A stretch of DNA of 64,000 bases from contig NC_086097.1 in NCBI RefSeq assembly GCF_963921235.1, positions 6,448,001 through 6,512,000 of the forward strand, given 5' to 3'. Positions 2,832-64,000 of the stretch are shown in pieces. The stretch comes from Mobula hypostoma. Taxonomy: Eukaryota. Both the position numbers and the translations under genes were made by a program. Each line of letters opens with the position of its first letter. Positions within the stretch are counted from its first letter, which is position 1. The notes below the pieces were generated by a model. It ran no database searches. It worked only from the letters and a program-made list of their open reading frames with translations, and was not told the DNA's origin.

Positions 2832-2937
2832 ACAAACAAGTGAAAATTTACAGATGCTGGAAATCCAAGCAACACACAAAAATGCTGGAGAACTCAGCAG
2901 GTCAGGCAGCATCTAGGAAAAAAGTACAGGCAATGTT
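2832..2937 (-). repeat. Penelope-like terminal repeat fragment, truncated at the hammerhead
   Basis: cagatgctggaaatccaagcaacacac...ggcagcatct is shared with the hammerhead-bearing repeats. Confidence 0.65.
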
Positions 2938-10240: not shown

Positions 10241-10770
10241 CAAGTTGGGTGACGGTGCAAAATAAATGGTGTCTGATTAGGTTCATGATTTTAACCTCAG
10301 TGATAGTACACCTGTTCAAAGATCAATACAAAAGCAAAAACTGCTTGTGTCACAAACAATGGTTTCTTTCATTATTCTCTCTTTACAGAAGCACTGTAAC
10401 AGGTCCTTCTGGCCCAATAAGCCAGCATCATTTCATTACAACCATGTGACCAATTAACCCGTACGTGTTCAGAACGTGGCGGAAAGCCAGAGCACCCAGA
10501 GGAAAGCCACATGGGAAGCAAAATTGTGGCAAAGCTCAGCCAGCCATGCTGTGTCTGTGTACAGGGAGTCAGGCTTAACATTTCAGTTCAGAAGAGGTCA
10601 TCAGTCTGAAAACTTACACATTCTCTTTCCACAGGTGTTGCCTGAATGATAGTTCGAACACAGAACATAGAACAGTACAGCACAGGCCCTTCGGGCCCAC
10701 AATGTTGTGCCAAACCAAAACAATTATGTGAATAGCTAAATAACTTAATCTTCTCTGTCGACACAATGTT

Positions 10771-17900: not shown

Positions 17901-17902
17901 AC

Positions 17903-20192: not shown

Positions 20193-20554
20193 AACATCTA
20201 TAGACAGATGAATAAATCATTAATATCATGGTACACCACACTCACTCCATTCTGCTATGAGTGAAATCTGTTTTACTCTCAGCTGGTAATCTAACCCACA
20301 GTGCAACACATTCAGGTTGGTTTAAAATTTAGGAATACTGTGTCCATCATGGATTGTTAATTCAGTTCCAGTGAAGTCCTCATGAACAATCTTTGCCTGA
20401 AATATTGACTGTTTGTTTATTTCCATTTCCTGCCTGACCTGTTGAGTTCCTTGAGTACTTTGTGTGTGTTAGGATTTCCAGCATCTGCTGAATCTCTTGT
20501 GTTTATGATTCAGTTCCAATTTTTTTGTTTCCTAAGTCTCCTTTTACCCATAAG

Positions 20555-22480: not shown

Positions 22481-23188
22481 CGACACATTTTATTAAAATC
22501 CCAAATAACTATTTTCAGGCTGGTTGCTGGATTATTTCCATCAGCTTTTTGCACAGGGATGTCCAGGTCCAGTCATCACAACTGGAGTCTACCTTCGTTG
22601 CAGTGGATGACCGTGACATCTTTTATGCCTTGTCATTCCCTTCACTCTCCCCAAAACATTGCAGAACTACCTTCCTGGCCGTTGGATCTCACTGTAGATC
22701 TCATCTGCCAAGTCCACCAGAACTAACTTCACAGGCACATCCCTATCTCACTGTGGTATGAGGCCCACAGGCTACCCTCACCGAGCTTAGCCCACTTGCT
22801 GAAGAGGTATACCAGGGTTCAGCCGCTGTTGCATGTGAACAGCTACTTGGAGCCATAGGAGTGAACTGAGTGTCTGGTGGGGCGTGAAGGTGAGTGCGCT
22901 TCGCAATCCGGGACTGTACCATACGGAGAGCAAGCTGTTGCCCATGTAGCAAGCTCTCCCTCTCCACACAGCTGATGAACCCAAAGTAGCGGCAGAGTGG
23001 TACCAGTGGTGTTACAGGAGTTTCCACTTAGTGTTGAACTCAGCATAGGACTGCTTTGGGAATTGACACTCTGGATTTCAAAACACAATAACTATAAATA
23101 CGTAAGTTAGCTTCCCTGTATATATATAGATTGATTGTATTTCCATAAAGTGACACAAGGCTGTACATATTTCTGATCATGTCCAAGA

Positions 23189-23460
23189 TATCCTGAAGTG
23201 GGAGGGTGAGGAGCCAGAGGTCGTGGTACATATAGGTACCAATGACATAGGTAGGAAAAGGGATGAGGTCCTGAAAGGAGAATATAGGGAGCTAGGAAGG
23301 GAGTTGAGAAAAAGGACCGCAAAGATAGTAATCTCGGGATTACTGCGTGTGCCACGCGACAGTGAGAGTAGGAATGCGATGAGGTGGAGGATAAATGCGT
23401 GGCTGAAGGATTGGAGCAGGGGGCAGGGATTCAAGTTTTTGGATCATTGGGACCTCTTTT
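23189..23460 (+). pseudogene. CR1 ORF1 SGNH/GDSL esterase fragment
   Basis: VVVHIGTNDIG block and INAWLKDWSRGQGFKFLDHWDLF. Confidence 0.85.
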
Positions 23461-27442: not shown

Positions 27443-27933
27443 GGGTGGAGCTGTTAATCAGCCTTACTACTTGGGGAAAGTAACTGTATTTGAGTTTGGT
27501 GGTTCTGGTGTGGATGCTACATAGCCTCCTTCCTGATGGGAGTGGAACAAACAGTCCATGAGCAGAGTGGGTGATTACAGCCTCCTCCTCTGCTATCAAG
27601 CCAAATCTCTGAACTTGTCAGTTTAAGCAATTTACAAACTAGTCGAATGAATAACTTGAAAATCTTATGTTCAGCTACATGAGGTCTAAATGAGATTTTA
27701 ATAGCATATGAAGATATAATTACTGCTTAGCAAACTCCCTAGTCCTACAGAAAACTGATTTATGTACTTGTGAATAAATTCACCCAGAAATACTTCAGAA
27801 TATAATGGATCATCTCATTATAAAGGTTTTCTTATAAGATAGGACCTGTATTCACTGGAGTATAGAAGAAAATGTTAGAAGCTATCCTTCAGTCTGGTGG
27901 GATATGCTTTCAGGATTTTTTATCTTCTACATG

Positions 27934-31001: not shown

Positions 31002-31037
31002 AGTCCTGAAGAAGGGTCTTGGCCTGAAACGGCGACT
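31002..31037 (+). ncRNA. Hammerhead motif with mutated cleavage triplet
   Basis: AGUC-CUGAAGA-AGGGUCUUGGCCU-GAAA-C-GGC-GACU. Confidence 0.6.
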
Positions 31038-32098
31038 GTTTATTCATTCCCTTAGGTACTGCCTGACCTGCTGCGTTCCTCCTGCATTTGTATGTGTTGC
31101 TCTCGATTTCCTGCATCTGCAGAAACTTCTGAGTCTCTGGTGAATTTAAAGAGATTCTTTTGTCAGACCTGCACAGGTATGCACCTCATAGTCTCCACCC
31201 AGCTAACAGGAATTAAAAACCACTTACTTCCAACTCATAAAATGCAGCCAATTTAAACAATCACTTTAAATTCACCAGCGACACAAGAGTTTCTGCATTT
31301 AAACTCAGCTCACATCCGCATTCCTCTTCACTCGTCTGAACTAGCCAGCCTCAACCAGTTGTTCCTAGCCTCCAGTTACCTTGTTGCCTTGTTGTGATCC
31401 TGTAAGTATCCCTCCTCTATTGTTTTGTGCCCCTGTGGCTTGTTATTTTGCAGTTTATTATTAAAGTTACCACTCACCGTTAGATAGTCTCTGCTGTTCT
31501 GTGTTTGGGTCAAGCTTCCTCTACATTGCTTGCTATCTACCTGGGCAGTGCATTGATTCACTTGCACATCTTCCAGTCAAGTTCACCATATTCAGTGTTC
31601 ACATAGTGGCTTCCTCTTCACTGGGGAAATCAAACACAGATAGGTTAATCACTTTACAAAACAAGACATTCTCTCTTATCCACCTTCTCTGTTACTTTGA
31701 CTAACCTTATTTGTCTTTCTTGAATCTGAAAAAGGGTCTTTGACATGAAACTTCAGCTGTTTTTTTCTACAGATGCTGCCTAACCCGTTGAGCTTTTCCA
31801 CCATTTACTAGTTTTCTTTCAGATTTATAGCCCTGTTTGAGAACCCCTTATCCAAAATCCAACAACCTCCGAAATCCAAGGTTATTTTGAGTGCTGACAT
31901 AATATTGAAAATAGAAAATTTCACAAGACATTGGGAAGGTTCAAAGGCAATATGCAGGTCTCTGTACACTACAGACTGTTATGAGAAGTGACCTCATATA
32001 TGTAATGAAAAATAAATAAACACTGCACAAGGCGAAAAATGAAGATCTCGAATGTGTATTGAAAGAGTGGATTTTTCAGTGTTAGAGTGAATATATGG

Positions 32099-34290: not shown

Positions 34291-34326
34291 AGTCCTGACG
34301 AAGGGTCTCGGCCCGAAACATCGACT
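34291..34326 (+). ncRNA. Hammerhead motif at the 5' end of a 128-bp insertion
   Basis: AGUC-CUGACGA-AGGGUCUCGGCCC-GAAA-C-AUC-GACU. Insert 34295-34422 is flanked by AAAGTC direct repeats. Confidence 0.7.
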
Positions 34327-35672
34327 GTACCTCTTCCTAGAGATGCTGCCTGGCCTGCTGCGTTCACCAGCAACTTCTATGTGTGTTGCTTGAATTTCCA
34401 GCATCTGCAGATTTCCTTGTGTAAAGTCTTTAACCTCTTGTTTTGAAAAGGTTATAATATTGGCCATTTCCACCCCCCTGGTATGTCATGAGAATTTTTG
34501 GAATATTACATTCAATGCACAACGTACGATTTTGGGATACATTTTGCCCAAGGCATTTGCCCCTTTAACACATTAGTTTGCCTAATACTATTTACCTAGC
34601 AATGCTGATCATGTTTAATCCCTACCCTACATTTTGTTTCAGTGTATTGGGGTGATTGTAGCATCTTAAGAAGTGAAGAATGGTACCAAATATCTCATTG
34701 ATTCCTATGTTCTTTCCTTGTTTCCCATGAGTATTTCAGCAGCCTTATTCTTTAAGAAGCCTATGTTTACTTGGACCTCACCTCATGGCTATGTATTTAA
34801 TGAAACTCTTACGGTCAGGTTTATATTTTTGCTGATTTACCCTCATGTTTTTCTTTCTTACTTTAGTCTTCTTTTGCAGGATTCAGAAATTATCTCCATC
34901 TTGGGTCTGCCCTTTAATGATTTCCGTCCGATATGCAGTGTCTATAAAAAGAATTCACACACCGCCCCCCACCCCCCGAAGTTTTCATGTTTTATTGTTT
35001 TACAACATTGAATCACAGTAGATTTAATTTGGCTTTGTTTGATTCTGATCAACAGAAAAAGACTCTTTCCAGTGTTTCTCTCTCCCCTCCCTCACCTTTT
35101 AAATCTATTCCTCAGCTTTTTTTTCTCCAGTCCTGCAGAAAGGTCTCGGCCCGAAATGTTGACTGTACTTTTTTCTATAGATGCTGCCTGGTCTGCAGAG
35201 TTCTCCCAGCATTTTGTGTGTGTTGCTTGGATTTACAGCATCTGCAGATTTTCCCTTGTTTGTAATTGGTGAATTCATCGTTTCCTGTCAGAGTCACCTT
35301 TTGAAGCACCACCCTGGCGCAGTGGTTATTGTGAAATTATTACAGCTTGAGACATTGGAGTTCAGAGTTCAATTCCATTGCCACCTGTAAGGAGTTTGTA
35401 CGTTCCATCCCATGTTTGCATGGATTTCCTCTGGGTGCACTGTATTCCTCCTGTGGTCCAAAGATGTACTGGCTAATGGATTAATTGGTCATTGTTAATT
35501 GTTTTGTAATTAGGCTGGGATTAAATAGGTGGTTTGCTGGACAGTGTGGGTCGTTGGATCGGAAGGGCCTGTTCTGTGCCGGATCTTGAAATAAATAAAT
35601 GTACAGACACTCCTGTACCTGGCATCACTTTACGTCCATATGTCAATTACGTCAATCTGTGTATATCAGCAA

Positions 35673-42363: not shown

Positions 42364-42844
42364 CTGTGATACAGTATTAAAAAAGCACAATATGAGTCAC
42401 AAACACAATCACAAAATACAAAATAAATATGAATGCATAAGATTAACTGATATACACAGATTGACTGTATGTCCATAAAGTGATGCCAGGTACAGGAGTG
42501 TCCGTACATTTATTTATTTCAAGATCCAGCACAGAACAGGCCCTTCTGATCCAACAACCCACACCGTCCAGCAAACCACCTATTTAATCCCAGCCTAATC
42601 ACAAAACAATTAACAATGACCAATTAATCTGTTAGCCAGTACATCTTTGGACTGCGGGAGGAATACAGAGCACCCGGAGGAAACCTACGCAAACATGGGA
42701 TAGAATCTACAAACTCCTTACAGGTGGCAATGGAATTGAACTTTGAACTCCAATATCTCAGGCTGTAATAATTTCACAGTAACCACTAGCCAGGGTGGTG
42801 CTTCAAAAGGTGACTCTGACAGGAAACGATGAATTCGCCAATTA

Positions 42845-43275
42845 CAAACAAGGGAAAGTCTGCAGATGCTGAAAATCCAAGCAATGCATGCAAAAAGTTG
42901 GAGGAACTCAGCAGACCAGGCAGCATCTATAGAAAAGAGTACAGTCGACGTTTCAGGCTGAGATCCTTCGGCAGGACTGGAGAAAAAAAAGCTGAGGAAT
43001 AGATTTAAAAGTTGGGGGGGGGGGGAGAGGGCAACACAAGGTGATAGGTGAAACTGGAGGAAGAGGGATGAAGTAAAGATCTGGGAAGTTGATTGGTGAA
43101 AGAGATTCAGGGCTGGAGAAGGGAGAGTCTGACAGAATAGAACAGAAGGCCATGGAAGAAAGAAATTGAGGGAGGAGCACCAGAGGGAGGCAATGGGGAG
43201 GCAAGGAGATAAAGTGAGAGAGGGAAAAGGAGATGGGGAATGGTAAAGCTGAGGGAAGGTGGGGGACATTTCCTG
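42845..43275 (-). repeat. Penelope-like terminal repeat with variant hammerhead (CUGCCGA) at 42943-42978
   Basis: Minus strand reads AGUC-CUGCCGA-AGGAUCUCAGCCU-GAAA-C-GUC-GACU, after a pyrimidine-rich leader. Confidence 0.75.
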
Positions 43276-44266: not shown

Positions 44267-45776
44267 GCTGAATGCCTTTATGGAATAATATCAAGCCTTT
44301 TGGGCTATTGTGGAGCTGTGAGAATACCCCACCACATTCCTAACTTGTTAGAGACATGTTTAAGTTGGCTGTGAGTGTGACCTGAGGAAAATGGCTTCCT
44401 GAGGTTTGGGAAGCTGACAAGTGGCAAGTCTGAGCAGCGGTAGAGGTCGGTATTTAGACTCGTCACTGTCTCATCTCAATGAAGCTTGCAGCTGCTCTTC
44501 CTTCTGGCAAATCTCAGAGTTGTTGGGTAGAGACAGCTTTCTTCAAGTTGGAAGGATGACTGATTGATGGGATCATTCCTGAGAGTGACTTTGGATATCC
44601 CTGACAGGAAAGCAATCACGATTCAAAGATTGCAGTGTTGGGACCACCACGACGCAGTGATCTACATGAAGGAACACCCCGTGAATGATAGAGCTGAAAT
44701 CCTCAGCCAGAATGAGTGGTAGAGGCAGAAATATTTGCATTTATTTAGAGTCACAGAAAAGAACAGCACAGAAACAATCCTTTGACCCATCTAGTCCGTG
44801 CTCCCATCGACCTGCAGAAGTTAAATAACTGTGTGTTTATAGGTAATGGACAAAGAGCTGGGCAGCGTCTGAAATTGCTCTTTTTGAGAACACAATGAGG
44901 TGAAGAATCTCCTTATATCTGTGCACGTCTCTGTTTTTATTGTTCACAACTGGTGAGGTACAAAGGGAATTATCTAAACTTTATGATAGTGCTCTATGTA
45001 ATCAGATAAATCATATGCAATGCTCCGTTGTTTTTGCTGACATTTCCTCATTTGCGGACATATAGGGCGTCACACGGTAGCGCAGTGGTAAGTGTAACAC
45101 TATTACAACTGGGGGCATCAGAGAACTATTTCCACATCCTCTGTAAGAAAGCTTATACGTTCTTCTCAATTCCATGTGGGTGCTCCAGTTTGCTACCACT
45201 GTCCAAAGACATAACAATCAGTACGACAATCTCCTGCTGTCTGGAAGGAGATACAGAAACATCTTAACCAAGAAGGTAAGATTGGGAAACAGCTTTCTCC
45301 TGAGGGCTGTTGTGCAGCTGAATAATGCACAACAGGGCCTGTGCCACACTATATCTCTCAGTATATCTATAAAAATAAATTGCAATTAAAGGAAATGAAC
45401 GAAGAACTTGTAGACAGAAGAGACTACAGATGCTGGAGTCTGGAGCCACACACAACCTGCTGGGAAAACTCAGCAAGTTGAGCAAGATCGGTGGGAGAAA
45501 AGAAATTGTTCCCACTTTGTGCCAAAACCCTATGTCAGGCCTGAGACAAGAGAGGTGAGATGGTCTGCAGAGAGAGGAGAACGGATTCTGGGGTGATTGT
45601 TGGACTGAAGAGAGGTGTAAGATGGTAGGCCAGGCAGGGGACGTGAGCAGAGGTGGAATTGGTGGGGTGTGGCTGGTAAATGATAGATGGAGGCAGACAA
45701 AGGAGTAAGGTGGGGAAGAAGTGTGAAAATTGTGGACTTGTGTTGGAGGGTGATAAGCAAGAACACCTGTACCGGA

Positions 45777-46047: not shown

Positions 46048-48187
46048 TAAGTAAAGGGAATAAGGGAGAAACAGTGAGTTGAATTGAGATCCTGGTTTAA
46101 GAAGACCTGGAAAGAGAACTAAAAGCCACAGATGTCATGATATTATAGTGATTAGTGAGAAACTATTACAGCTCAAGGGTTTGGAGTTTGGAGATCATCT
46201 CTGGCATCCTTCTGTAAGAAAGTTTGTACACTCTCCCTGTGTGCACGTGGATTTCCTTTGGGTGCTTCATTTTCATCCCACAGTCCAGTCAGTAGGTGAA
46301 GTGGTCTTTGTAAATTGTCCTGTGATTAGGTTAGGGTTAAATAGGTGGGTTGCTGGTTGATGTGGCTCATTGGGACGGAACGGTCTGTTCCCTGCTGTAT
46401 CCCTGAATAAGTAAAAATAAGGCCATAAGGTGAGAATAAAAGTATAAAAGATCATGAGTCAAATTTATTGTCATGAGAAGGCCAGGTACAGTGAAAATCT
46501 CGCAGCAGGTTCACAACACCAAGACAAGTAGACAACACAGAATATAAATTAGACTTTATTTATTTATTTATTTGTGTATTTACTTACTTATTCAGAGATA
46601 CAGTGCAGAACAGGCCCTTTCTGTCCAATGAACCCCGGCACCTAGCAGCTCACCGAGAGCCTGGCGAGAATGGAAAGGCGAAAATACAAGAAGACATAGG
46701 AGCAGAATTAGGCCATTTGGCCCAGAGTGTTCTCTGCCATTTCATCATGGCTGATCTAATTTTCCTCTCAGTTTCAATCTCCTGCCTTCTTCCCAAATCC
46801 CTTCATACCCTGTTCAATCAAGAATCTATCAACCTCTGTCTTAAATATACATAAAGACTTGGACTCCACAGCTACATGTAGCAAAGAATTCCACAGTTTC
46901 AGCACTCTGCAGCTAAAAAAAAATCCTCCTCATCTCTGTTCTAAAATGACACCTCTCTATTCTGAGGCTGTGTCCTCTGGTCTTAGACTCTCCCACCATA
47001 GGAAACAGTCTCTCCAACCTCTCAAGGCCTTTCACCATTCTATAGGTTTCAATGTGTCACCCCTCATTCTTCTAAATTTTAGTAAATACAGGCCCAGAGC
47101 TATCAAACACTTCATATGACAAGCCATTCAATGCTGGAGTCATTTTCATGAACCTCCTTTGAACTCTGTCCAGTTTCAGCCCATCCCTTCTAAGATAAGG
47201 AGCCCAAACCTGCTCACAATAATCAAAGAGAGGCCTCACCAGTGGTTTATAAAGCCTCAACATCACATCTTTGCTTTTATATTCTAGTCCACTTGAAATG
47301 AACTCTGACATTGCATTTGCCTTCCTCACCATAGTCTCAATCTGCAAGTTAACCTTTATGGAACCCTGCACAAGGTCTCCCAGGTCCCTTTGCACCTCAG
47401 TTTTTTAAAATATTTTCTCTCCATTTAATAAACAGATTATCCTTTCATCTCTTCTGCCAAAGTGCATGACCATACACATCCCAATACTGTATTCCAGCTG
47501 CCATTTCTTTGCCATTTTTCTCCTAATCTGTCCAACTCCTTCCGTAGCCTTTCTACTTCCTCCAGAACTATCTTCCTCTCTGCCTATCTTCATATCGCCT
47601 GCAAACTTTACAACAAAGCCATCTATTCCTTCACCCAGATAAATCATTGGCATATAATACGAATAGAATTGGTCCCAACACAGACCCCTGTGGAACACCA
47701 CTCATCACTCGCAGCCAGCCAAAAAAGGTTCCCTTTATTCCCACTCTTTGCCTCCTGACAATCAGCCACTGCTTTATCCATGCTAGAATCTTTCTTGTCA
47801 TACTACTGGCTTGTAGCTTGTTAAGCAGTCTCGTACATGGCACCTTGTCAAGTGCCTTCTGAAAATCCAAGTACACAACATCAACTGATTCTCCTTTGTC
47901 TATCCTGCTTGCTATTTCTTCAAAGAATTCCAACAGATTTGTCAAGCAACATTTTTCATTGAGGAAACCATACAGACTACAGCCTATTTTATCATGTGCA
48001 TCCAAATACTCTGAGACCTCATCCTTAATTATTGACTCCAACATCTTCTCAACCACTGAGATCAGACTAACTGGCCTATAGCTCTCATTCTGCCTCTCTG
48101 TCTTCTGGAGAATGGAGTGACATTTGAAATTTTCCAGTCTCCCGGAAGTATTCCAGAATCTAGTGATCCTTGAAAGATCTTTACTAA

Positions 48188-48544
48188 TGTCATGGTCCGG
48201 TCTGTGAAACCCGCGTTCCGGTTCTCAGTCCAGTCCATGGACTCTGGACTCCAGGTCTTCCGGCTGTCCCTTGTTTCATTTGGGCTTAGTCATAGGCACC
48301 TGATGCTCGTCTTGGGGCTGGGAATATCAGTGGCCCTGGGTTCGCGTGTGGTTGCTGGTGTCTCGTCAGTATCCCGTCCTCACCTACGTGGGGTAAGTCA
48401 GGCTCTTTGCCGTTACCCTGAGGCTGGACTGTTCCCTTCCCTTGCCCTTCCTTCTGAAGTCTTGCCTGTGACCTGCGCCTGAAGCCTTGCTCACAACCTG
48501 TGTCTTGCATTTGGTTCTGCCACCCAGCACCTCCCTTTATGACA
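48188..48544 (+). mobile_element. Solo LTR (357 bp)
   Basis: TGTCAT...ATGACA termini with 5-bp TSD ACTAA (48183-48187 and 48545-48549). Confidence 0.92.
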
Positions 48545-48858
48545 ACTAATGTATCCACAATCTCTTCTGCCACCTCTTTCAGAACCCTGGGGTGTTCACC
48601 ATCTGTTCCAGGTTGTTCAGACTTTTCATTTTCCCAAGAAACTTCTCTCTAGTAATGGTAACTTCACACACTTCATGTCCGCTGATGCCTGGAATTTCCA
48701 CCATGCTGGTATTGTCTTCCACAGTGGAGTCTGATGCAAAGTACTTATTCAGTTTGTCCACCATCTCCTTGTCCCCCAGTACTACCTCTCCAGCATTGTT
48801 TTCCAATGGTCCAATATCCACACTTGTCTCTCTTTCACACTTTATATATCTGGATAAA

Positions 48859-49042
48859 GCAACACACAAAAAAGTTGCTGGTGAACGCAGCAGGCCAGGC
48901 AGCATCTCTAGGATGAGGTAGAATTGATGTTTCGGGCCGAGACCCTTCGTTAGGACTAACTGAAAGAAGAGCTAGTAAGAGATTTGAAAGTGGGAGGGGG
49001 AGGGGGAGATCCGAAATGATAGGAGAAGACAGGAGGGGGAGG
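48859..49042 (-). mobile_element. 184-bp Penelope-like hammerhead repeat insertion with 13-bp TSD
   Basis: ATATCTGGATAAA at 48846-48858 and 49043-49055. Degenerate hammerhead at 48922-48957. Confidence 0.85.
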
Positions 49043-49417
49043 ATATCTGGATAAACCTCTTTTTTTGGTATCCTCTTTAATATTATTAGCTAGCCTACTT
49101 TCATATTCCACCTAAATCTTCTTAATGACCAGATGACACAGAGATACTGAAAGCTGACATATCCTAAGGATCCACATTCCAGAGTTCTGAAAGAGGTGAC
49201 AGCAAATTTAATGGATATAGGAATTACCATCCATCTATAGTAGGGGTTCCCAGCCTGGGGTCTAAGCCCCTTTGCTTACTGGTATTGGTCTATGGCATAA
49301 AGAAGGTTGGGCATCCTTGATCTTTTGGGAAGAGTTCACTACTATATAGTCCTCCCATTCTTCTCATAAGTTCGTACACCTCAGGAAAATAAAGATCCAG
49401 CAATCCATAACACAGGA

Positions 49418-49856
49418 CATTCTGCAGATGCTGGAAATCGAGAGTATCACAGTCAAAATATAGGAGGAACTCTGCAGGGCGGGCAGCATCTGTTACTTAT
49501 TTTTATGCACACATTCTTTCTCTCACTCTCCTTTTTCTCCCTCTGTCCCTCTGAATATACCTCTTGCCCATCCTCTGGGTCCCCCCCCCCTTGTCTTTCT
49601 TCCCGGACCTCCTGTCCCATGATCCTCTCATATCCCTTTTGCCTATCACCTGTCCAGCTCTTGGCTCCATCCCTCCCCCTCCTGTCTTCTCCTATCATTT
49701 TGAATCTCCCCCTCCCCCTCCAACTTTCAAATCCCTTACTCACTCTTCCTTCAGTTAGTCCTGACGAAGGGTCTCGGCCTGAAACGTCGACTGCACCTCT
49801 TCCTACAGATGCTGCCTGGCCTGCTGCGTTCACCAGCAACTTTGATGTGTGTTGCA
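49418..49856 (+). repeat. Penelope-like repeat with short inverted upstream copy
   Basis: 49418-49491 is an inverted partial copy of the repeat 3' end; 49492-49856 is the forward repeat. Confidence 0.75.
49757..49792 (+). ncRNA. Minimal type I hammerhead ribozyme motif (perfect core, GUC triplet)
   Basis: AGUC-CUGACGA-AGGGUCUCGGCCU-GAAA-C-GUC-GACU. Confidence 0.82.
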
Positions 49857-49869
49857 TGAATAAATAGTT

Positions 49870-52800
49870 GATATTTCCAGGCAATGCCAAGTTTTGTGGC
49901 CAGCCAGGACATTTCCGGGATACTTGCCCTCAGCGGCGAAAAGGGAAAGCTCACCAGTGAAAATGGGGGCCCTGGTCAGCCGGGTGATACTCCCTTCAGC
50001 CCCCCAGACTCGGATGCAGATCCCGGCTACCATGAATTACCAACGACAGTCCCTGTCCCCATCCGCTTTGGTGGATTCCGGTGCTGAAGGCAATCTGCTG
50101 GACGAAGGGATAGCCATCCAGGCCGGAATACCTCGCAAGCTGCTAACTATCCCCCTGGAGGCCCGGGCCCTGGATGGAAAACTACTGGCTCGAGTGACCC
50201 ACCGTACGTCGCCCCTGACCTTGATCCTGTCTGGCAACCATCGGGAGGAGGTACGATTCAGTCTCATTCATTCACCTCAAGCGCTGGTAGTTCTAGGGTA
50301 TCCATGGCTGACCCAATACAATCCCCACATCGACTGGTCTAACGGGAGGATAGCCAAATGGAGCCAGTCTTGCCACGCCAACTGCCTGTGGTCAGCCCCA
50401 TCTCCCAGAGAAGGTACCGCGACCCTGACTGTCCCGGAACCCCTCGATTTGTCCCGAGTCACCACAGAATACCATGACCTGGGACAGGTGTTCAGTAAAC
50501 AACGGGCCCTTTCCCTGCCTCCGCACCACCCATATGATTGTGGCATCGACCTTCTCCCTAGGGCCTCGCTACCCACCAGTCGCCTTTTTAACCTATCCCG
50601 ACAGGAGAGAGGCCATGAAGAAGTACATTAGTGAGTCCCTCGCGGCGGGCATTATCACACCTTCATCCTCCCCCGGTAGGCGCCAGTTTCTTCTTTGTGG
50701 AAAAGAAGGACTGGTCGCTTCGTCCTTGTATTGATTACAGAGGCCTAAACAGTATAACAGTTAAGAATAAGTACCCTCTACCCCTCATTAGATCGGCTTT
50801 TGAACCACTGCATGGAGCCACCATCTTCTCAAAGCTGGACCTTCGTAACACCAACCATCTAGTCAGGATGAGGGAGAGGAACGAGTGGAAGACGGCCTTC
50901 GATACACCTCTGGGCTTCTTCGAATATTTGGTCATGCCATTTGGCCTCACCAATGATCCCGCCATTTTTCAAGCCCTAAACAATGACGTACTGAGGGATT
51001 TTATTAATCGGTTCATATTGGTTTACCTTGATGATATCCTGATATTTTCTAGCACCCACCAAGAACACGTTCACCATGTCCGTCAAGTCCTCCAGAGACT
51101 GTGGGAAAACCAGTTATTTGTAAAGGCGGAGAAATGCGAGTTCTACATTCCTTCGGTCAGCTTCCTGGGTTATATCATTGAGAGCGGGCAGGTGAGAGCA
51201 GACCCCGAGAAGATCCGGGCAGTGGAAGAATGGCCTAGGCCCACGACCCGCAAACAACTTCAACGATTCCTGGGGTTTGTAAACTTCTACCGCCGACTTA
51301 TCAGAGACTACAGTCGAGTGGCTTCCCCCTTTACCCGGCTTACCTCGCCTACCATCCCCTTCTGTTGAGACTCCGAAGCTGACTCGGCGTTCACTGACCT
51401 GAAGAGGCGTTTCACCACCGCTCCCATCCTGGTCCATCCGGACCCTTCCCGCCAATTCATTGTTGAGGTGGACGCCTCTGACTCCGGGATAGAAGCAGTC
51501 CTGTCCCAACGATCAAGTTCGGACAAAAAGCTTCACCCCTGTGCCTTATGTTCTTGCCGACTGTCCCCTGCCGAGTGGAATTACGACGTGGGGAATCGGG
51601 TACTCCTGGCACTCAAACTAGCATTGGAAGAATGGAGGCACTGGCTAGAGGGGGCAGAACAACCAGTTGTGGTGTGGACTGATTATAAAAATTAAGACCG
51701 CCGAAAGTTTGAACTCCCGCCATTGAACTCCATTGGGCATTATTTTATTGACAGTTCAAGTTTTCCCTCACATACTGTCCAGGGTCCAAAACGGGAAGCC
51801 GGATGTGCTTTCCCGCCAATACGACTCCAAGGCGGACACTTCTAGCCCAGGGACTATCCCCTCACCATCCTGTGTGGTTGCCACACTCACTTGGGAGATC
51901 GAGCACAAAGTAAAAGAAGCCCAATGAGACGACCCCGACCCCGGCAGTGGACCCGGTGATCGCCGGTATGTGCCCGTTTCCGTCAGGTCTCAGGTTCTCC
52001 AATCGGGGCACACATCTCGGTTCGCCTGCCACCCTGGGAGTGATCGGACCCTAGTGCTCCTGAAAAAACACTTTTGGTGGCCATCCATGGAGGTGGATAC
52101 CCATTAATATGTCTCGGCATGTTCCATCTTTGCCTGGGGAAAAGCCTCTCACCGGCCACATGCGGGTTTACTTCGTCCTCTACCTGTCCCTGGTCATCCC
52201 TGGTTGCACATCACCCGAGAGTTCACCACCAGTCTACCGCCTTCACATGGAAACACCACCGTACTCACCGTGTTAGACCGGTTCTCCAAGGCGGTGCCCT
52301 TCGTAGCCCTCCCTAAACTCCCTTCCTTTCAAGAAACCGCAGATCTTCTCATCCGCCACGTCTTCCACCTCCACGGAATCCCCGCGGACATCGTCTCCGA
52401 TCGAGGTCCCCAGTTCATCTCGCAGGTATGGAAGGCATTCTGTCAAATCTTCGGTCAGACTGTCATCCGGCTTCCATCCCCAGACGAACGGGCAGACGGA
52501 AGGGGTCAACCAAGACCTGGAGGCGATGCTACCTTGTGTAATGGCAGACAACCCGTCGACCTGGAGCGACCACCTCCCGTGGGTTGAGTACGCCCACAAC
52601 TCCCTTGCGAATTCTGCCATTGGAAGGTCTCCATTCGAATTCTCCCTGGGGTACAAACCCCCGCTGTTCCCCGCGCAAGAAGAGGAGGTTGCGGTACTGT
52701 CGGTTCAGGACCATATCGATTGGTGCCTTAAGGTTTGGGAGCAGACACGCACGGCCCTACTCAGATCAGCAAATCGCAATAAAAAGATGGCCGACCGACA

Positions 52801-53672
52801 CCAGACTCCGGCGCCTGAGCACCAACCGGGGCAGATGGTGTGGCTTTCATCCAAGGACATCCCGCTCAAGAACGAGCAGAGGAAACTCGCCCCTCGCTTC
52901 CTGGGACCATTCAGGTCGAAAGTGTTATCAATCACGCAGCGGTTCGCCTAAAACTGCCAAGATCTATGCGCATCCACCTGACTTTCCATGTTTCCCAGTT
53001 AAAGCCAGTTTCCATCAGCCCCTTGTGTCCCCCGGCTGAGACTCCCCCACCTGCCCGTATGATCGACAACCACCCGGCATACACCGTCCGACGGCTACTG
53101 GCTGTGCGCCGTCGGGGCAGGGATCTCCAATATCTGGTGGACTCTGAAGGGTACGGTCCAGAAGAGCGTTCCTGGGTCCCCCGCTCCTTCATCCTAGACC
53201 CTTCCCTCATCCAGGACTTTCATCGGGACCATCCAGACAGGCCTGGAGGATCACCTGGAGGCTCCCGTTGAGGGAGGGATACTGTTGTGGTTCCTTCTGG
53301 CAATCCCCCACCTTCATTATTTACCTCAGGAATTGGGCCTCAATCCCCTCATTTAATTTCTAGTCATTCCCAGGTTCCACTAACTACACACACCTGCTTC
53401 CCATCAGAAAATGCAGGATAAAGACCCTGTGATCACAACAAGGATCTGCCAGTTCGTTGGTCGACTCTGGTGTGAGTAACCACGTTTCATGATTCTTAGC
53501 ACTGTTAGTTCTAAGTCAAGCATCGCTCCTGGATTCTCTCCAAACCTAAGACTTCGAGTAAAGACTCTCCTGAAAACCGATTCCACGCTCACTATGGAAA
53601 TAATGCCCCCCGACTCTGCCCCCACGCCCGTGTTCTGCACTTGGGTTCGTCCGCCGCCAAGCTCATGTAACA
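49870..53672 (+). mobile_element. Sushi-like chromovirus (Ty3/Gypsy) lacking the 5' LTR; 3' LTR at 53283-53672
   Basis: Knuckle FCGQPGHFRDTC, then PR-RT-RH-IN-chromodomain, PPT gagggagggatac, and LTR TGTTG...TAACA. Confidence 0.93.
49962..53271 (+). pseudogene. Gypsy pol pseudogene (protease, RT, RNase H, integrase, chromodomain)
   Basis: [39 protein letters not shown] and [16 protein letters not shown] motifs; several frameshifts and stops. Confidence 0.93.
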
Positions 53673-57048: not shown

Positions 57049-60000
57049 TGTGAAGTATGGCTCTAATAGATCTATTTCTTTTAGAGCAATGACTCCTGTT
57101 AGCACTACGTATGGACTGCTAACTTACCTATGTGCATTGATATGTTGTCTATGCATGTGTATTGATCTGCCCTCTCTCTCGCTCAATGTGAATACTTCTG
57201 CTGAAGCTATCTCCCGTGTACATGCTTTTATTTAATTGACATGTAGTTGCACAGTTTCAACAAATTGGTGACGAGTATGAAGCTAAATGTCAGAGAATAT
57301 CAACAACTGCACCAACCATTACAGGATGATTACGGAATGAAAGAGCAAGAGGAAAGAGTTAAACAGTATGTAGAAAGCAGTCACAGATGCTAACGAAGGA
57401 ATGTGTGAGTAACCGCATAGTACACAGTGTGAGACGCACAACTAGCAAAGTTAAAGTGAAAATAACATGGTGCTGACTTGTGAAAGTTGATGAATTGGAT
57501 AGCGCTAATGAAGGCTGGGAGTTGTATTTTGTGAGGATTGAACTGTATTGTAATGTGAACAACATGGATGAGCAATAGGTGCTAAAACGTACAGTCTCTT
57601 ACATATTCTAGTAACCCCTGAAAAGTGAACAAGCAACACTTCCAAGGAAATTGGTGCCATTTTACAAAATCACTTGAGCCCTAAACTGCTAGTAATAGCT
57701 GAGAGATTTAGATTTTAGAAAAGGAACCGGTCAAAGCATTTCTGAAAACATTGCACAAACTTTCCCAGTACTGTGACTTTGGAGATGGGGTTTCTGATAC
57801 ATTAAGGGACAGGTTTGCATGTGCATGCATAGTCAAAGCACTCAAAAGTGGCCATTGTCAGAAAGAGACCTAACCTTAAAACGGACATTGACCATTGTAA
57901 TATCATTAGAGACTGCAGCAAAGGATGCAGCAGAACTACAGAAAAAGAGTTTAGAATGTGAAATGCAGAAAATGTCCCCGAATGGTACAAAAAGCCATAA
58001 ATGTTTTTGATGTGGCAAATCCTCCCATGATGCAAATGACTGTTAGTTGAAAGAAAAAGTTTGCAGAAAGAGTCACCGACAAGACAAACATGTGCAAGGC
58101 AGACTAAAATCATAACCGAGTGAAAAACCTCAAATACAAAACTAAACAAACATATAAAATGAACGAATGTGAAACAGACAACACAGAGTCAGACAAAGGT
58201 GAGCTATCATGCCTAGAATTCCATAGTATTACTGAAGCAGACCACAAAATCATATGGATAACAATAGAAGTGTCTGGTGTAAAACTGAAAATGGAGCTAA
58301 ATTTAGGGTCAGTTTTGTCTATAATTTCAGAGGCTGACTACAAAAGACTGTTTTCAGAGCTACCATTAGAGAAGACCTCAGTGAAGCTAAAGACCTAAAA
58401 AGACAAACTGAAAGTGAATGTGATGAATGGAGACCACATACAGCTTTATGTATTGAAAAGTGCTGGACCAGCAATTTTCAGACATGAATGGTTGAGAAAA
58501 ATCCAACTAAACTGGCACACAATCAATGTGTCATCAACAGGCAACTGCAGCCTAAATGGTAGCACTAAACAGAGACTGGCACATCTGCTTAATGCTAATG
58601 AGAAGATGTTTGAGAAGGGGTTTGCTAAACTCAAAGGCACGAAGGCCAGAATTGAACAGGATGAAGCAGCAACACAATGTTACAGCTATATAAGACCTTA
58701 ATTAGACCCCACTTGGAGCATTGAGTTCATTTCAGGTCACCTCACTAAAGGAAGGATGTGGAAACTATAGAAAGGCTGCAGAGGAGATTTATAAGGACGT
58801 TTCCTGGATTGGAGAGCATGGCTTATGAAAAACAGTTGTGTCAACTTGGATTTTTCTCCTTGGAGCGACGAAGGATGAGAGGTGACCTGATACAGGTGTA
58901 TAAGATGATGAGAGGAATTGTGTGTGTGGATAGCCTGATGCTTTTTCCCCAGGGCTGAAATGGCTAACATGAGGGGGCATAGTGTTAAAGTGCTTGGAAG
59001 TATGTACAAGGGGATGTCAGAGGTAAGTTTTTCATACAGAGAGTGGTGGGTGCATGGAATGTACTGCCAGCAAAGTTGGTAGAGGTGGATACAACAGGAT
59101 CTTTTAAGAGACTTCCAGATAGGTGCATGGAGCTTAGGAAAATAGAGGGCTATGCAGTAGGATAATTCTAGGCAGCTTCTTGAGTAGGTTGCATGGTCAG
59201 CACAACATTTTGGGCCAAAGGGCCTGTAATGCATTATAGATTTTCTATGTTCTAACACCAAGAATCAATAAAGCATGTTCAGTACCTTACGCATAAGTCC
59301 GAAAGTGGATGCTGAAATTCAGAGCTTGGTACCGTCCGGAATTCTGTCCAAGACTGAGGAAGCAATTGGGTCACACCCATTTTCCTGGGGATCAAGAAAG
59401 GGAAAGTCAGAGCTGTTCACGTATGTGGGGATTTCAAAATGACCATCAACCCAGTACTGCATACAGTACAGTATCCCCTGCCTCGAATAGAAGACATTTT
59501 TGCATCTTTGGAAGTGGGGAGATTTTTTCAAAGATTGACTTGTCACAAGCCTATCTACAAATGGAGACTGAGGAGTTAAACAAGAAGTTCCTCACAATCA
59601 ACACTCACAAGGGACAGTTCCAGTATAATTGTCTCATCTTCGATGTCGCATTAGCTCCAGCAATTTGACAAACAGCAATGGACAAAGTGCTCCCTGATAT
59701 CCCAGGAACACAATGTAACCTTGATGACATCGTCATGACTGGCAAGAGTGATGAAGAGCACCTCCAGAACCCTGGAAAATTGAGTATGGTCTGCGCATGA
59801 AGAGAGAGAAATGTGAGTTTTTCAAGAATGAAATCTCAGATTGCAGACATGTCATTGACAAGCGTAAGTCACAAGACTGAAGCAGTGCTACAGGAACCTA
59901 AACCAGAAAATGTGTCACAACTCAGGTCATACTTGGGCCTTCTCAACTACTACTAACAACTTCTCCCAAACATTGCCACAACGCTGCATCCATTGAATGC

Positions 60001-61275
60001 ACGGTCATAAACAGGAGCAAGCTGGGAATGGTCTGAAAGATGTGAAAGAGCATTCAAGGGAACAAGGTGCCTAATAACATTTCAATGAACTGCACATCCA
60101 ATATGATCCATCCTTACCCATCAGCCTGTCATACCATGTGTCCCCTTATGGCATTGGAGTCATTCTGTCACACACTATGAAAGATGGATCTGAACGTCCG
60201 AATCTGCTTGTTTCAAGATCACTGATGAGTGCAGAATGCAACTACACTCAGATCGATCGAGAGGCCCTTGGTCTAGTATGGGGCATAAAGAAGTTCCACC
60301 ACTACCTTTATGGACAAATGTTTACGCTAGTGACAGGCCACCAGCCCCTTGTGCCCACTTTCAATCGCAGGAAAGAAATACCAGTGAGGTCTGCTACCCG
60401 GTAACAACGTTGGACACTGCTCCTACAAGTCCAGTCTTATGACCTACAGTTCCAGGGTATCAAACAACACAGCAATGCTGATGGCTTGTCACGTCTTCTA
60501 CTGTTGACAAGTGAAGATGAAAAGTCTTCATACTGTGACCCAGCAGAATCAAACACCTGCAATGCTCTTCATGGACAGGAGTCTGAGATCTTGCATAGAC
60601 TTCCAGAAGCCAAACCTATGGAGGGAAGTGCAGAATAATCAGTTCAGCCAGTTACCTTATGAAGTGTTGATGCCGGACAGAAAGTCCTAGCACGTGATTA
60701 CCGCGAAGACAAGTGGACACGCTGTAGGATAGTTACAAGAACTGAACCACTGATGTACACTGTGGATGTTGGAGATCAGACATGGAGACACCATGTGGAC
60801 CAGATACTAGATGCTCAGCCTAAGAAGACATCTGAGCTGACTGCATCCATCAAGAAGGACACATTGCAGCCACTAGACTTGCCTCTCAGTGAAGATTACG
60901 TCACTAATAGCAATTCGACACCAGCAACCGAAAATGTTTTCTTTGACAAGACACCTGCCAAACCTGATGCTACTCCACAGGTCCAAAGAAACAGAATGCC
61001 AGAGAGAAGACTGAATTTTTAGTATGGCAAAGTTAGTTATGGACTGTTATTGTGAAAACATGTTTATTTAAATATGGTTTGTGAAAGCAAAATTGAATGT
61101 TTTGTACATATACATTTTTATGTTGCATTAATCTAAAGGGAGAGGAAGTGTAATGTATAGATCTATTTCTTTTAGAGCAATGACACCCCCCCCCCAGCAC
61201 TATTCATGGACTGATAACTTACCTATGTTCATTGATCTGTTGTCTACACATGTGTAATGATCTGCTCTCCCTCTC
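57049..61275 (+). mobile_element. Degenerate Mag-like Gypsy element with both LTRs
   Basis: 5' LTR ends at 57262, PBS TGGTGACGAG at 57266. FSKIDLSQAYLQ and NYTQIDREAL motifs. PPT then 3' LTR from 61149, matching the 5' LTR and truncated. Confidence 0.88.
58682..59253 (+). mobile_element. CR1 3' fragment nested in the Gypsy element
   Basis: LERRRMRGDLIQVYK motif and tttctatg tail. Confidence 0.88.
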
Positions 61276-61289
61276 CCCCCCCTCCCTCA

Positions 61290-62140
61290 CAGAAGAGGAA
61301 TGGGAAGTAAAATTAAAATGGGTGTCCACTGGGAGATCCTGCTTTTTCTGACAGATGGAGTGTAAATGCTCAGTGAAGCTGTCTCCCAATCTACATTGGG
61401 CCTCACCAATATACAGGAAGCCACACCGGGAGCACCGGATACAATAGATGACTCCAACAGACTCACAGGTGAAGTGTCCCCTCTCCTAGAAGAACTGCAT
61501 GGGGCCCTGAATGCTAGTGAAGGAGGAGGTGGTGTATCATTTGTTCTGCTTGCAAGGATGTGCCAGGAGGGAGATCAGTGTGGTGGGACGAATGGACAAG
61601 GGAATCACGTATGGAGAAATCCCTGTGGAAAGCAGAAAGTGGGGAAGTCAGGGGTGGGGGGGGGAAGATGAGTTTGGTGGTGGGATATTGTTGGAGGTGG
61701 CAGAAGTTATGGAGAATTATGTTCTGAATGCGGAGGCTGGCGGGGTGGTAGGTGAGGACAAGAGGAACCTTATCTCTGGTAGGGTGGCGGGAAGATGGGG
61801 TAAGGCCAGATTTGCGCGAAGTGGAAGAGATGCAGGTGAGGGCAAAGTTGTTGGTGGAGGAAGAGAAGCTCCTTTCTTTGAAGAAGGAGGACACCTCCTC
61901 TGTACAGGAATGAAAAGCCTCATCCTGTGTGTAGATGCAGTGGAGATCGTGGAATTGAGAAAAGGGGATGGCGTTTTTACAAGTAACAGTCTGGGATGAG
62001 GTATAGTCCAGTTAGCTGTGATAATCAGTGGGTTTATAAAAGATATCAGTAGATAAGCTGTCTCCAGAGACTGAGAAGGAGGAGGAAGGTTTTGGAAATG
62101 GACCAATTAAATATGAGGGCAGGGTGGAAGTTGGAGGCAA
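61290..62140 (-). mobile_element. Penelope-like element fragment (RT thumb and GIY-YIG endonuclease)
   Basis: MSSFFKER and DKVPLVLTYHP motifs. The minus strand near 61370-61470 reads CESVGVIYCIRCSRCGFLYIGE (GIY-YIG). Confidence 0.85.
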
Positions 62141-62309
62141 ATAAAAATAGTTACTATTCTCTAGATTTGCTGGGTCTGCCCGCAAGAAGATGAATCTTAG
62201 GTTGTATGTGGTGACATCTATGTACTTTGATAATGAAATTTAATTTCAACTTTGGCTCAGCCTTCACAGCTGTCTGTGACAATGAATTCCACAGATTTAC
62301 CAATTAATA

Positions 62310-62557: not shown

Positions 62558-64000
62558 AAGTTAAAAAGTAAACAGTATCATGCTGCTGGTATTTCATATG
62601 CGATGAGAACTGGGTGGTCGCAGGAGTTCAGTGGTCTCGCAGCCTGGCAGAAGAAGCTACTTCACATCCTAACAGTCCTTGCTCTAATGCTACGGTACCT
62701 CTTGCCTGATGGTAAGAGTCAAAGAAATTATTGGACGGATGGTAGGGATCATTGACAATCTGTTTTATGTCTTTCATTTCTGTTCTTCATAACCCTTGGC
62801 TGCTCTCTGCTCCCGCACCTCTCAGCCTTCATGATTCAATACATACAGTGCTGATTTTTGTTCTTAAAAAGTACATATTTTTTATAGTAAGGAATGACAG
62901 CTTGAATTAATGAACTCTTAATGTTGTTGGAAAACTGTCAACTTCTGAAACAAATTCATTTTGAAAATCAAGTAGCAAACTGAGCATGGATTCAAAATTA
63001 TATCACATAGCACACACTGAGTGGGGCAATGGTAGCAGATATATCTCAAGACCTTCTCTCTGTTGTCTAATTTTTCCATTAATCCTTTCTTTCCATTGAC
63101 AGGAAGCCCAGATTATATTTGGTATTCGTGCTGCTGTAACCCAGGTTACTTAAACCCAAAGATGTAGCATTAGAAAGCTCCACCAATGGAAGGATGAAAA
63201 TGAGGTTTACAGAATTTTTTTGTAAAAAGGAACTTGGGGAAAAAAAAGCTATGCGAGCACGGGGTGTGGTCAAGCAACAAAAATGCAGCGAACTATTAGA
63301 AACTAAAGATATAAACTGTTAAAAGAATTAGCAGTGAGTATCTCTACCCTACTTACTTGAGAACCTCAGGGTGAAACCCTGAGAGGAGAGATTATATCGA
63401 TAAAAGGTGTGTTGAACCTATGGGTATAATAAGCATCAGTTACAGCAAAACAATATCGGCAGGGACAAGTGTCCAAGACTGTACAGGGTAACCAGGAATT
63501 AGTTCTGTTAAATCCTACCAAGGATCTTGGTGAACTAAAACACTTCTACTGTTCAAAGTGTATAATCTGTGTGTGAAATATGTTCAGTAGTCTTGTAACA
63601 GAGAAGTGTTTGGAAATGAGATTGTGATATTGAGTTATTTTTGAAATCGAAAATAGAATGCAAAGAACTTATGCATTCTAATCCTGTTGTATACAGATCA
63701 GGTTTTATTGTGTAAGTATTGTGAATCAACCTTCCATCCTACGAACCAAGAAACAAGATGGCGAGCCAACCAAGATCGAAGAGTCAGCGCGGGAGTGAAA
63801 CTTTCATGACGTAGAGGATTTAATACGTTGGATGTAAAAGTTTAATTTTCATTCAAAGAATCTAAATTTGATTTTCTTGAAGAACTGATAATTTGCAAGA
63901 ACTTTGATAAGTTACTGAATTAGATTTACTTTGTTTAAATATAGTGATTTTGAGGAATTGTTGTGAAAGGAGTTAAGCTGTGTATATGTGTGTGTACGTG

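What the first reader, a model, noticed from the sequence alone, without database searches (positions are those of the whole stretch)
49757..49792. Family of minimal hammerhead ribozymes scattered through the window
Seen: the 36-nt motif AGUC-CUGANGA-(stem II)-GAAA-C-NUH-GACU or a near variant at 30887(-), 31002(+), 34291(+), 35129(+), 42943(-), 48922(-) and 49757(+). More decayed traces lie near 10590, 20372, 31723 and 45510. Copies 49757 and 30887 have intact cores. Stem III is reduced to palindromic ACGU with no loop. Knowledge: Penelope-like elements carry such minimal type I hammerheads, thought to cleave as dimers. A PLE RT/GIY-YIG fragment is at 61290-62140. Inference: about one copy per 9 kb here suggests a very large genomic ribozyme reservoir that could cleave host transcripts.
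Basis: partly seen in the sequence, partly recalled or inferred. Interest (0 to 1): 0.7.

Follow-up and report, generated by a model that had tools for sequence, protein, structure and literature searches.

The report
Penelope retrotransposon minimal hammerheads in ray
These are real copies of the small, pair-dependent self-cutting RNA motif that Penelope-like jumping genes are already known to carry, left behind as mostly decayed end-pieces in the genome of a ray-like fish, so the catch is correct but ordinary.

Summary
All 7 named copies exist. A strict minimal-hammerhead descriptor finds 2 (49757+, 30922-) and none in 500 of 500 shuffles. The motif lies in the 3' pseudo-LTR of a Penelope-like element (PLE), probably Neptune clade: a Mobula predicted RT/GIY-YIG protein that reads on into its 3' UTR matches 49488-49619 at 93%. 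Target-site duplications and inverted truncated pairs fit PLE insertions. The anatomy matches the published metazoan min-HHR consensus (PMC4209133). In contigs from 3 deep public runs, only CpG positions of the 36-mer vary, while flanks carry subfamily changes (0 of 26 vs 16 of 69 non-CpG sites; 11 rows unshown). This fits selection in transposing lineages. CpG changes that break the core occur at background rates, which fits neutral decay after insertion. Cleavage of host transcripts is unsupported: the two intact copies lie on opposite strands 19 kb apart, and such motifs need a partner and probably the PLE protein. The scan noted the same motif before, in this genome and in shark genomes. 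New member of a known kind; low interest.

The parts
49757..49792 (+). Complete minimal type I hammerhead: stem I 49757-60/49789-92, core C3-A9 49761-67, extra A 49768, stem II 49769-72/49777-80 (G10.1-U11.1 wobble) with a 4-nt loop, GAAA 49781-84, palindrome ACGU 49784-87, C17 49788; predicted cut between 49788 and 49789
   Evidence: matches the consensus in PMC4209133 Fig. S3
49494..49756 (+). Pyrimidine-rich 3' UTR / pseudo-LTR of the PLE, 5'-truncated; it begins shortly after the GIY-YIG stop
   Evidence: P0001 residues 379-422 match 49488-49619 at 93%, E 1e-9
49793..49858 (+). Conserved 3' tail of the element, downstream of the hammerhead
   Evidence: shared by all copies; contig depth ends near 49860
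49422..49493 (-). Inverted tail-only piece of another subfamily abutting the 5' end of the 49494-49858 copy (typical PLE inversion)
   Evidence: E 2e-9; arrangement described in PMC8557442
30887..30922 (-). Second complete min-HHR (GUU site), left arm of an inverted pair
31002..31037 (+). Copy with NUH lost (GGC), right arm of the same inverted pair; a 7-bp direct repeat at 30809-15/31137-43 flanks the pair
34291..34326 (+). Copy with core and NUH (AUC) intact but palindrome broken (ACAU); the insertion starts at stem I; a 6-bp repeat lies at 34289-94/34423-28
35129..35164 (+). Copy with A6->C; lies in a local duplicate of the 42978 locus
42943..42978 (-). Copy with A6->C within a 42845-43273 insertion that has a 15-bp TSD (1 mismatch)
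48922..48957 (-). Copy with G5->A and CpG changes within a 48859-49042 insertion that has an exact 13-bp TSD (48846-58/49043-55)
20375..20410 (+). Decayed copy (core and stem II broken)
   Evidence: E 4e-13
31557..31757 (+). Old PLE 3' end: GIY-YIG remnant 31557-31661 followed on the same strand by a decayed hammerhead at 31722
   Evidence: E 9e-5 (P0007); E 8e-10
45507..45542 (-). Strongly decayed copy
   Evidence: E 6e-7
10518..10644 (.). Two weak, head-to-head decayed traces (10586- and 10591+), probably an old inverted junction
   Evidence: E 0.013 and 0.073 (weak)
2849..2937 (-).
   Evidence: E 2e-16
61291..62141 (-). Broken PLE fragment (end of RT, thumb, linker, GIY-YIG) with stops and frameshifts; an older subfamily with no hammerhead attached
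   Evidence: relatives carry RVT_1 and GIY-YIG

Best explanation
The motif is the minimal type I hammerhead (min-HHR) in the 3' pseudo-LTR of an endonuclease-bearing Penelope-like retroelement, most likely Neptune clade, in a batoid (myliobatiform) ray genome. Shown here: it sits about 350-400 nt after the GIY-YIG coding end and about 65 nt before the element's 3' end, and the window copies are 5'-truncated retrotransposed ends. Inferred from published work: a tandem element transcribed through two pLTRs carries two copies on one RNA; they swap stem I strands and pair ACGU with ACGU to form a shared helix III, then cut 3' of GUC, slowly and probably with the element's own protein as chaperone, to process the element RNA. 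The dispersed single copies are passengers. They lack a partner, are mostly broken, and decay neutrally, mainly at five CpG sites, whereas the lineages that keep transposing keep the motif.
For: Descriptor 2 hits vs 0 in 500 of 500 shuffles. Link to the PLE ORF: P0001 holds RT-thumb and GIY-YIG (PF01541 E 5e-4) and continues into residues matching 49488-49619 at 93%; a GIY-YIG remnant lies 60 bp upstream of the decayed copy 31722. TSDs of 13 and 15 bp; inverted truncated pairs, as described for PLEs. P0001 has a CX4CX2C linker, the Neptune/Nematis mark (PMC8557442). The published consensus has the extra nucleotide after A9, G10.1, a palindromic 15.2/16.2 and a U-rich 5' flank; G-U at 10.1-11.1 occurs in several of its examples. 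In 3 deep runs (7676, 5641 and 1139 contigs laid), 0 of 26 non-CpG motif positions vs 16 of 69 non-CpG flank positions show a change of at least 2% (Fisher p 0.005). The best-supported loose ends start at 49757 and stop at 49793, the edges of stem I. Harmless CpG changes are enriched (N7 C>U 7.5-11.9%; U11.1 71-84%). Damaging ones sit at background and are symmetric (15.2/16.2 2.1-5.3%; G12>A 0.9-3.2%, i.e. 5-10% of C11.1-bearing depth).
Against: No cleavage was tested. There is no compensatory pair change among 10 window copies (0 of 8 pairs). Within the window the core is no better kept than the stems (5 of 88 vs 10 of 128, p 0.6). The core-vs-flank test depends on 11 unshown rows: p rises to 0.03, 0.14 and 0.26 if 1, 2 or 3 of them lie in the motif, and 49810-49826 of the tail is equally invariant. 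Contig shares are depth-weighted, biased to the young subfamily, and may come from other species. Nearest-neighbour folding puts the active double hammerhead (-9.5) far above inactive dimers (-28.3 kcal/mol), and monomer folds are no better than shuffles (z -1.2 to -0.3). No full-length element with two pLTRs was seen, and no RT tree was built for the clade call.
Confidence: 0.82

Rival explanations
1. The sequence is kept in ray PLEs mainly for a non-catalytic job, for example as a 3' splice acceptor whose AG is the first two bases of stem I, or as a promoter or RNP signal. Self-cleavage would then be dispensable in at least some lineages.
For: In 6 of the 8 best-kept copies (those that retain element sequence upstream) 15-19 of 20 upstream bases are pyrimidines. 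5 of 11 protein models returned with this stretch (P0019, P0020, P0024, P0026, P0027) start their match within a codon or two of an AG at or 2 nt before stem I (junctions inferred from residues, DNA not seen). The D. virilis Penelope intron ends at helix I (PMC4209133). A6->C occurs in the 42978/35129 locus and is implied in P0026 and P0027, all with the same subfamily tail. Hammerhead mutants did not affect insertion in vitro (PMC11167929).
Against: The whole 3' UTR is pyrimidine-rich, and a U-rich flank is general for min-HHRs. Gene predictors choose such AGs without RNA support. A>C at 49764 is below 2% in X1, X2 and X19 (all A>C changes counted in table 1 are accounted for by other rows). 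A search for further A6C relatives returned 0 of 11 candidates. An acceptor does not explain the conserved CUGANGA, GAAA and palindrome.
Confidence: 0.1
2. One reading: the dispersed copies form a large ribozyme reservoir that cleaves host transcripts, in cis when two sense copies share a pre-mRNA or in trans with PLE protein.
For: Intact density extrapolates to about 31,000 per Gb (95% range 3,800-113,000). Four named ray gene models (STARD3NL X3, SIRT3 X6, COASY, one uncharacterized) translate this stretch or its tail in sense, so some annotated host mRNAs may contain it. Retrozyme-type repeats are depleted in Xenopus introns and exons (10.64898/2026.07.22.740005), which hints at a cost.
Against: Only 2 of 12 remnants are intact, and they lie on opposite strands 19 kb apart. 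Damaging CpG changes are not purged. Published monomers are inactive and dimers weak; 8 of 9 Xenopus dimers did not cleave; no RNA-seq ends were found at the Anolis site. No host exon was identified in the window (crude scan).
Confidence: 0.05
3. The copies are monomers of a non-LTR retrozyme (tandem satellite making circular RNA) rather than truncated PLE ends.
For: Two copies (34291, 20375) begin at or next to stem I as short units of about 130 bp. Retrozymes were found in 1 of 1 chondrichthyan genome sampled.
Against: No head-to-tail array of the unit occurs in the window. 5' ends vary, and one copy reaches almost to the GIY-YIG stop. Among the joints, the 'goes back' joints are single contigs of low depth.
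Confidence: 0.03

Closest known systems
Minimal hammerheads (min-HHR) in the pLTRs of metazoan Penelope-like elements (Cervera and de la Pena 2014, PMC4209133)
   Same: Type I topology, helix I of 4-5 bp, an extra nucleotide between A9 and 10.1, G10.1, palindromic 15.2/16.2 with no loop 3, location in the pLTR, mostly single dispersed copies from truncated elements, and opposite-strand pairs 100-700 bp apart.
   Different: Helix II is short (4 bp, vs 7-8 in Schistosoma, though 3-5 bp examples are listed). No cartilaginous fish appears among the chordates in the part of Fig. S3 that I read, and 'shark', 'Callorhinchus' and 'Leucoraja' have 0 hits in the searched supplements. The extrapolated count may exceed the ~9,000 reported for Xenopus tropicalis.
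Poseidon_Ac (PAc) hammerhead of Anolis carolinensis (Frangieh et al. 2024, PMC11167929)
   Same: A vertebrate PLE pLTR hammerhead followed by a conserved tail that sets the 3' end of insertions.
   Different: Poseidon clade, with the ORF starting in stem II; here the linker zinc finger points to Neptune, and the ORF start was not located. PAc was assayed (protein-assisted); this motif was not.
Non-LTR retrozymes (Li et al. 2026, 10.64898/2026.07.22.740005; PMC7229834 seen as listing only)
   Same: Type I hammerhead derived from PLE pLTRs; reported from one chondrichthyan.
   Different: Retrozymes are defined by tandem units; the window has none.
Rfam hammerhead families
   Same: Same catalytic core (established knowledge).
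   Different: No Rfam family matched at gathering score over the whole window, and no hammerhead family was among the 6 matches at E up to 10 over 30000-50500.

Membership tests
Metazoan PLE min-HHR | CUGANGA and GAAA core with NUH site, type I topology | tested here: met
   2 of 12 remnants complete (49757+, 30922-)
Metazoan PLE min-HHR | [quoted passage not shown] | tested here: met
   A in 8 of 8 best-kept copies
Metazoan PLE min-HHR | G10.1-C11.1 pair | tested here: met
   G-C in 1 and G-U in 5 of 8 copies, changed in 2; G-U also occurs in published examples
Metazoan PLE min-HHR | Palindromic 15.2/16.2, no helix III loop | tested here: met
   ACGU in 49757, 30922 and 42978; AUAU in 20375; broken in 4 of 8
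Metazoan PLE min-HHR | Located in the pLTR of a PLE | tested here: met
   P0001 read-through matches 49488-49619 at 93%; GIY-YIG remnant before 31722. A full element with both pLTRs was not seen.
Metazoan PLE min-HHR | Covariation in stems across families | tested here: inconclusive
   0 of 8 pairs with a two-sided change in 10 closely related window copies
Metazoan PLE min-HHR | Self-cleavage as a dimer or with protein | not testable with these tools
   needs an in vitro assay
Neptune clade PLE | RT followed by a C-terminal GIY-YIG endonuclease with CCHH | tested here: met
   P0007 has RVT_1 and GIY-YIG, P0001 has GIY-YIG; order and Cys/His residues
Neptune clade PLE | CX2-5CxxC zinc finger in the RT-EN linker (absent in Penelope/Poseidon) | tested here: met
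   CX4CX2C in P0001 and P0007; decayed in the window fragment; the criterion, from PMC8557442, is shared with Nematis
Neptune clade PLE | RT phylogeny with Neptune references | not tested
   no named reference set was fetched
Non-LTR retrozyme | At least two consecutive tandem units, each with a hammerhead | tested here: not met
   none in the window; the rest of the genome is not held

The most novel reading that the evidence does not exclude
In rays this PLE left on the order of 10^4-10^5 intact min-HHRs, each with a 3' splice acceptor built into stem I. Sense-strand intronic copies would then be spliced into host mRNAs, with the upstream exon's last bases restoring or removing stem I, and would become cleavable only when the element's protein is expressed (for example in the germ line). 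One subfamily may even have spread with a dead A6->C core, a natural test of whether PLE hammerheads are needed for transposition.
Probability: 0.06. Interest if true: 0.6.

Novelty: new member of a known kind. Interest (0 to 1): 0.2.

Why it matters
As it stands it extends a 2014 finding to a ray genome: ordinary. It would matter more if the copy number is confirmed at 10^5 or above. So many copies in several subfamilies would allow a clean population test of an open question, namely whether PLE hammerheads are under selection for cleavage and at which step, since in vitro insertion does not need them (PMC11167929).

Tried and rejected
Rfam: 0 matches at gathering score in 64 kb; 6 matches at E up to 10 in 30000-50500, none a hammerhead; four of them (microRNA families) reflect the 30922/31002 inverted repeat and were rejected as chance. 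The window's genome is not held, so no genome-wide count was possible. A motif pattern found 0 matches in viral contigs and 0 in metagenome contigs. Expression: no RNA holder listed; the 4 of 22 runs laid are contigs, which cannot show ends, strand or level, and table 6 was empty. This says nothing for or against cleavage. X9 (6 records) was left out of the shares. One contig joint skipping 49684-49757 was too weak to count as splicing. The window PLE ORF piece alone hit 0 Pfam families; its identity rests on relatives. The profile search of the motif's translation gave 9 proteins, of which P0022 and P0025 are repeat-protein chance hits and were dropped. The organisms behind P0023-P0028 remain unknown. 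A search for more A6C relatives returned 0 of 11 candidates, and a sequence look-up in earlier findings returned nothing. A crude exon scan gave 25 candidates, none recognisable as a host gene; they were not scanned further. No TSD was found for the 49422-49858 unit. Chance was rejected as an explanation. Lunse et al. 2017 (dimer cleavage of PLE hammerheads) is not held; I know it only from its citation in PMC6765202, and it may list shark or ray examples.

Full report
Observation. The 36-nt motif at 49757-49792(+) is as described. A profile built from the 7 named copies recovers all 7, the 4 decayed traces (three clearly, the 10590 pair only at E 0.013 and 0.073) and two more tail-only pieces at 2937(-) and 49493(-); the best hit on the reversed window is E 7.8. 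The bare core pattern is not above chance (9 vs 6.1). A full minimal-hammerhead descriptor finds 2 sites, 49757(+) and 30922(-), and none in 500 of 500 shuffles. Of the other five named copies, 31002 has lost NUH, 34291 has a broken palindrome, 35129 and 42978 have A6->C, and 48957 has G5->A and more. The copies are fewer as events than as motifs. 30922/31002 form one inverted unit flanked by a 7-bp repeat, and 35078-35669 duplicates 43029-42447 with its flank. There are 12 hammerhead remnants and 2 tail-only pieces, from about 10 insertion events, and 2 are intact.

Host and element. The best relatives of the ORF piece at 61517-62011(-) are predicted proteins of Mobula and Hypanus (58-69% identity), then sharks (17 hits among 384 candidates). 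The window therefore comes from a batoid ray, probably myliobatiform (inference). These proteins carry RVT_1 and/or a C-terminal GIY-YIG domain. The window fragment 61291-62141(-) is an older, broken copy that ends inside the endonuclease and has no hammerhead, so it shows that PLEs are present but does not link them to the motif. The link comes from P0001, a Mobula hypostoma model that reads on into the sequence after the endonuclease: its residues 379-422 match 49488-49619 at 93% (E 1e-9). So 49494-49858 is the element's 3' UTR/pseudo-LTR, with the hammerhead about 65 nt from the end. A second link is a GIY-YIG remnant at 31557-31661(+), 60 bp before the decayed copy 31722(+) (E 9e-5). Insertion marks fit retrotransposition: TSDs of 13 bp (48846-58/49043-55) and 15 bp with one mismatch (42830-44/43274-88), variable 5' truncation, and inverted truncated partners (49422-49493 against 49494-49858; 30922 against 31002). 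Such inversions are typical of PLEs (PMC8557442, 12 of 26 passages seen). The CX4CX2C linker of P0001 and P0007 marks Neptune or Nematis rather than Penelope/Poseidon; no tree was built.

Anatomy against the published motif. Cervera and de la Pena (PMC4209133; parts 1-2 of 4 of the text, part 2 of 3 of supplement file 2, file 1 not searchable) define min-HHRs by a helix I of 4-5 bp, an unpaired base after A9, G10.1-C11.1, palindromic 15.2/16.2 and no loop 3. They report thousands of single copies per genome (about 4,000 in coelacanth and 9,000 in Xenopus tropicalis) and opposite-strand pairs 100-700 bp apart. The window motif meets each point. G10.1-U11.1, the majority form here, also occurs in their cichlid, coelacanth and Xenopus examples. 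Rfam has no match.

Is it kept by selection? Four of 22 listed public runs were laid on 49640-49900. They are contigs, may be DNA, and may come from other species; three laid 7676, 5641 and 1139 records, and the fourth (6 records) was left out. In the 40 of 51 variant rows shown, every change inside the 36-mer falls on one of five CpG sites. 0 of 26 non-CpG motif positions vary at 2% or more, against 16 of 69 non-CpG flank positions (p 0.005). The p value rises to 0.03, 0.14 and 0.26 if 1, 2 or 3 unshown rows lie in the motif. Among the 24 of 485 loose-end rows shown, the large ones start at 49757 (98, 66 and 29 contigs) and one stops at 49793 (107 contigs): subfamilies that differ outside share the motif from edge to edge of stem I. 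At the CpG sites the harmless changes are in excess (N7 C>U 7.5-11.9%; U11.1 71-84%). Damaging ones occur at background and about equally on both strands (15.2 C>U 2.1-5.3%, 16.2 G>A 2.7-4.2%; G12>A 0.9-3.2%, or 5-10% of the CpG-bearing share). G8>A is not among the shown rows, and may be among the unshown. The simplest reading is selection in lineages that transpose and neutral decay after insertion. Against this: part of the tail (49810-49826) is as invariant; among the 8 best window copies the core is no better kept than the stems (5 of 88 vs 10 of 128); and there is no compensatory pair change.

Mechanism. Shown: sequence, position in the element, and insertion marks. Inferred from the literature: two copies on one tandem transcript swap stem I strands and share a 4-bp ACGU helix III, cutting 3' of C17 (49788/49789). 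A single Schistosoma min-HHR did not cleave, and dimers cleaved weakly. The Anolis PLE hammerhead cleaved only with the PLE protein present, its mutants did not affect insertion, and no RNA-seq ends mapped to its site (PMC11167929, parts 1-2 of 4). 8 of 9 Xenopus dimers did not cleave (10.64898/2026.07.22.740005, parts 1-3 of 5 and a passage search, supplements closed). In a nearest-neighbour model the active dimer of 49757 (-9.5 kcal/mol) lies far above inactive pairings (-28.3). That fits a need for help, but the model ignores the tertiary core.

Host-transcript cleavage. The two intact copies lie on opposite strands 19 kb apart, so no RNA from this window holds two of them. No host exon was recognised by a crude scan, and expression could not be tested. 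The count may be large: about 31,000 intact per Gb (95% range 3,800-113,000) and about 190,000 remnants per Gb, extrapolated from one window. Four named ray gene models translate the stretch or its tail in sense. This shows annotation through copies, not cleavage.

Side leads. The AG that opens stem I follows a pyrimidine tract in all three well-kept subfamilies. Five of 11 returned protein models begin their match at about that AG or the one 2 nt before it (inferred from residues; two further hits were dropped as chance). The D. virilis Penelope intron also ends at helix I (intron described in PMC2377424, 12 of 25 passages). A6->C appears in one window locus and is implied in two unnamed proteins with the same subfamily tail, but it is below 2% in the laid contigs, and a further search found nothing. 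Both leads are weak.

Novelty. The kind is known since 2014. I found no paper holding both 'hammerhead ribozyme' and 'elasmobranch', or 'Penelope', 'stingray', 'genome assembly' and 'repeat' together. Searches gave listings with no ray-specific study. However, a 2026 preprint reports retrozymes in one chondrichthyan, and Lunse et al. 2017 could not be read (seen only as cited in PMC6765202, 6 passages). Earlier notes of this scan describe the same motif in this genome and in shark genomes; I had stated my reading before seeing them, and I could not test their figure of over 150,000 motifs. Verdict: real, a new member of a known kind, interest 0.2.

Noticed in passing
window 49864-53271 (+): Broken LTR retrotransposon of Ty3/Gypsy type (RT hits RVT_1 at E 1e-32; protease-, integrase- and chromodomain-like ORFs read by eye) starting just after the 49494-49858 PLE end.
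   Followed up: partly
window 23154-25946 (+), 26920-27453 (-), 47631-49100 (-), 17898-18317 (-): Several non-LTR (CR1-like, label from recall) LINE remnants; 24177-25946 is an open 589-codon RT frame (RVT_1 E 5e-31). The 48859-49042 PLE end is inserted in one of these remnants.
   Followed up: partly
window 6719-8219 (+): piggyBac-like transposase remnant (PF13843 DDE_Tnp_1_7, E 7e-13).
   Followed up: partly
window 14693-15307 (+): ORF resembling a Tc1/mariner transposase (by eye, label recalled).
   Followed up: no
window 35078-35669 and 42447-43029: 592-bp inverted local duplication at 90% identity that includes a PLE end and its flank; the flank is itself a repeat also seen near 3115-3319 and 46147-46415.
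   Followed up: partly
window 63070-63150 (+): A pyrimidine tract and AG followed by about 50 bases that look like a short host exon; gene not identified, and not among the candidates.
   Followed up: no
window 34291 and 20375: Two insertions begin at or within a few bases of the 5' edge of stem I rather than at the predicted cut site; AT-rich loose ends at 49758-49759 in X2 and X19 hint at the same pile-up.
   Followed up: partly
window 59300-61020 (+): A second, more decayed LTR-retrotransposon pol remnant (by eye).
   Followed up: no
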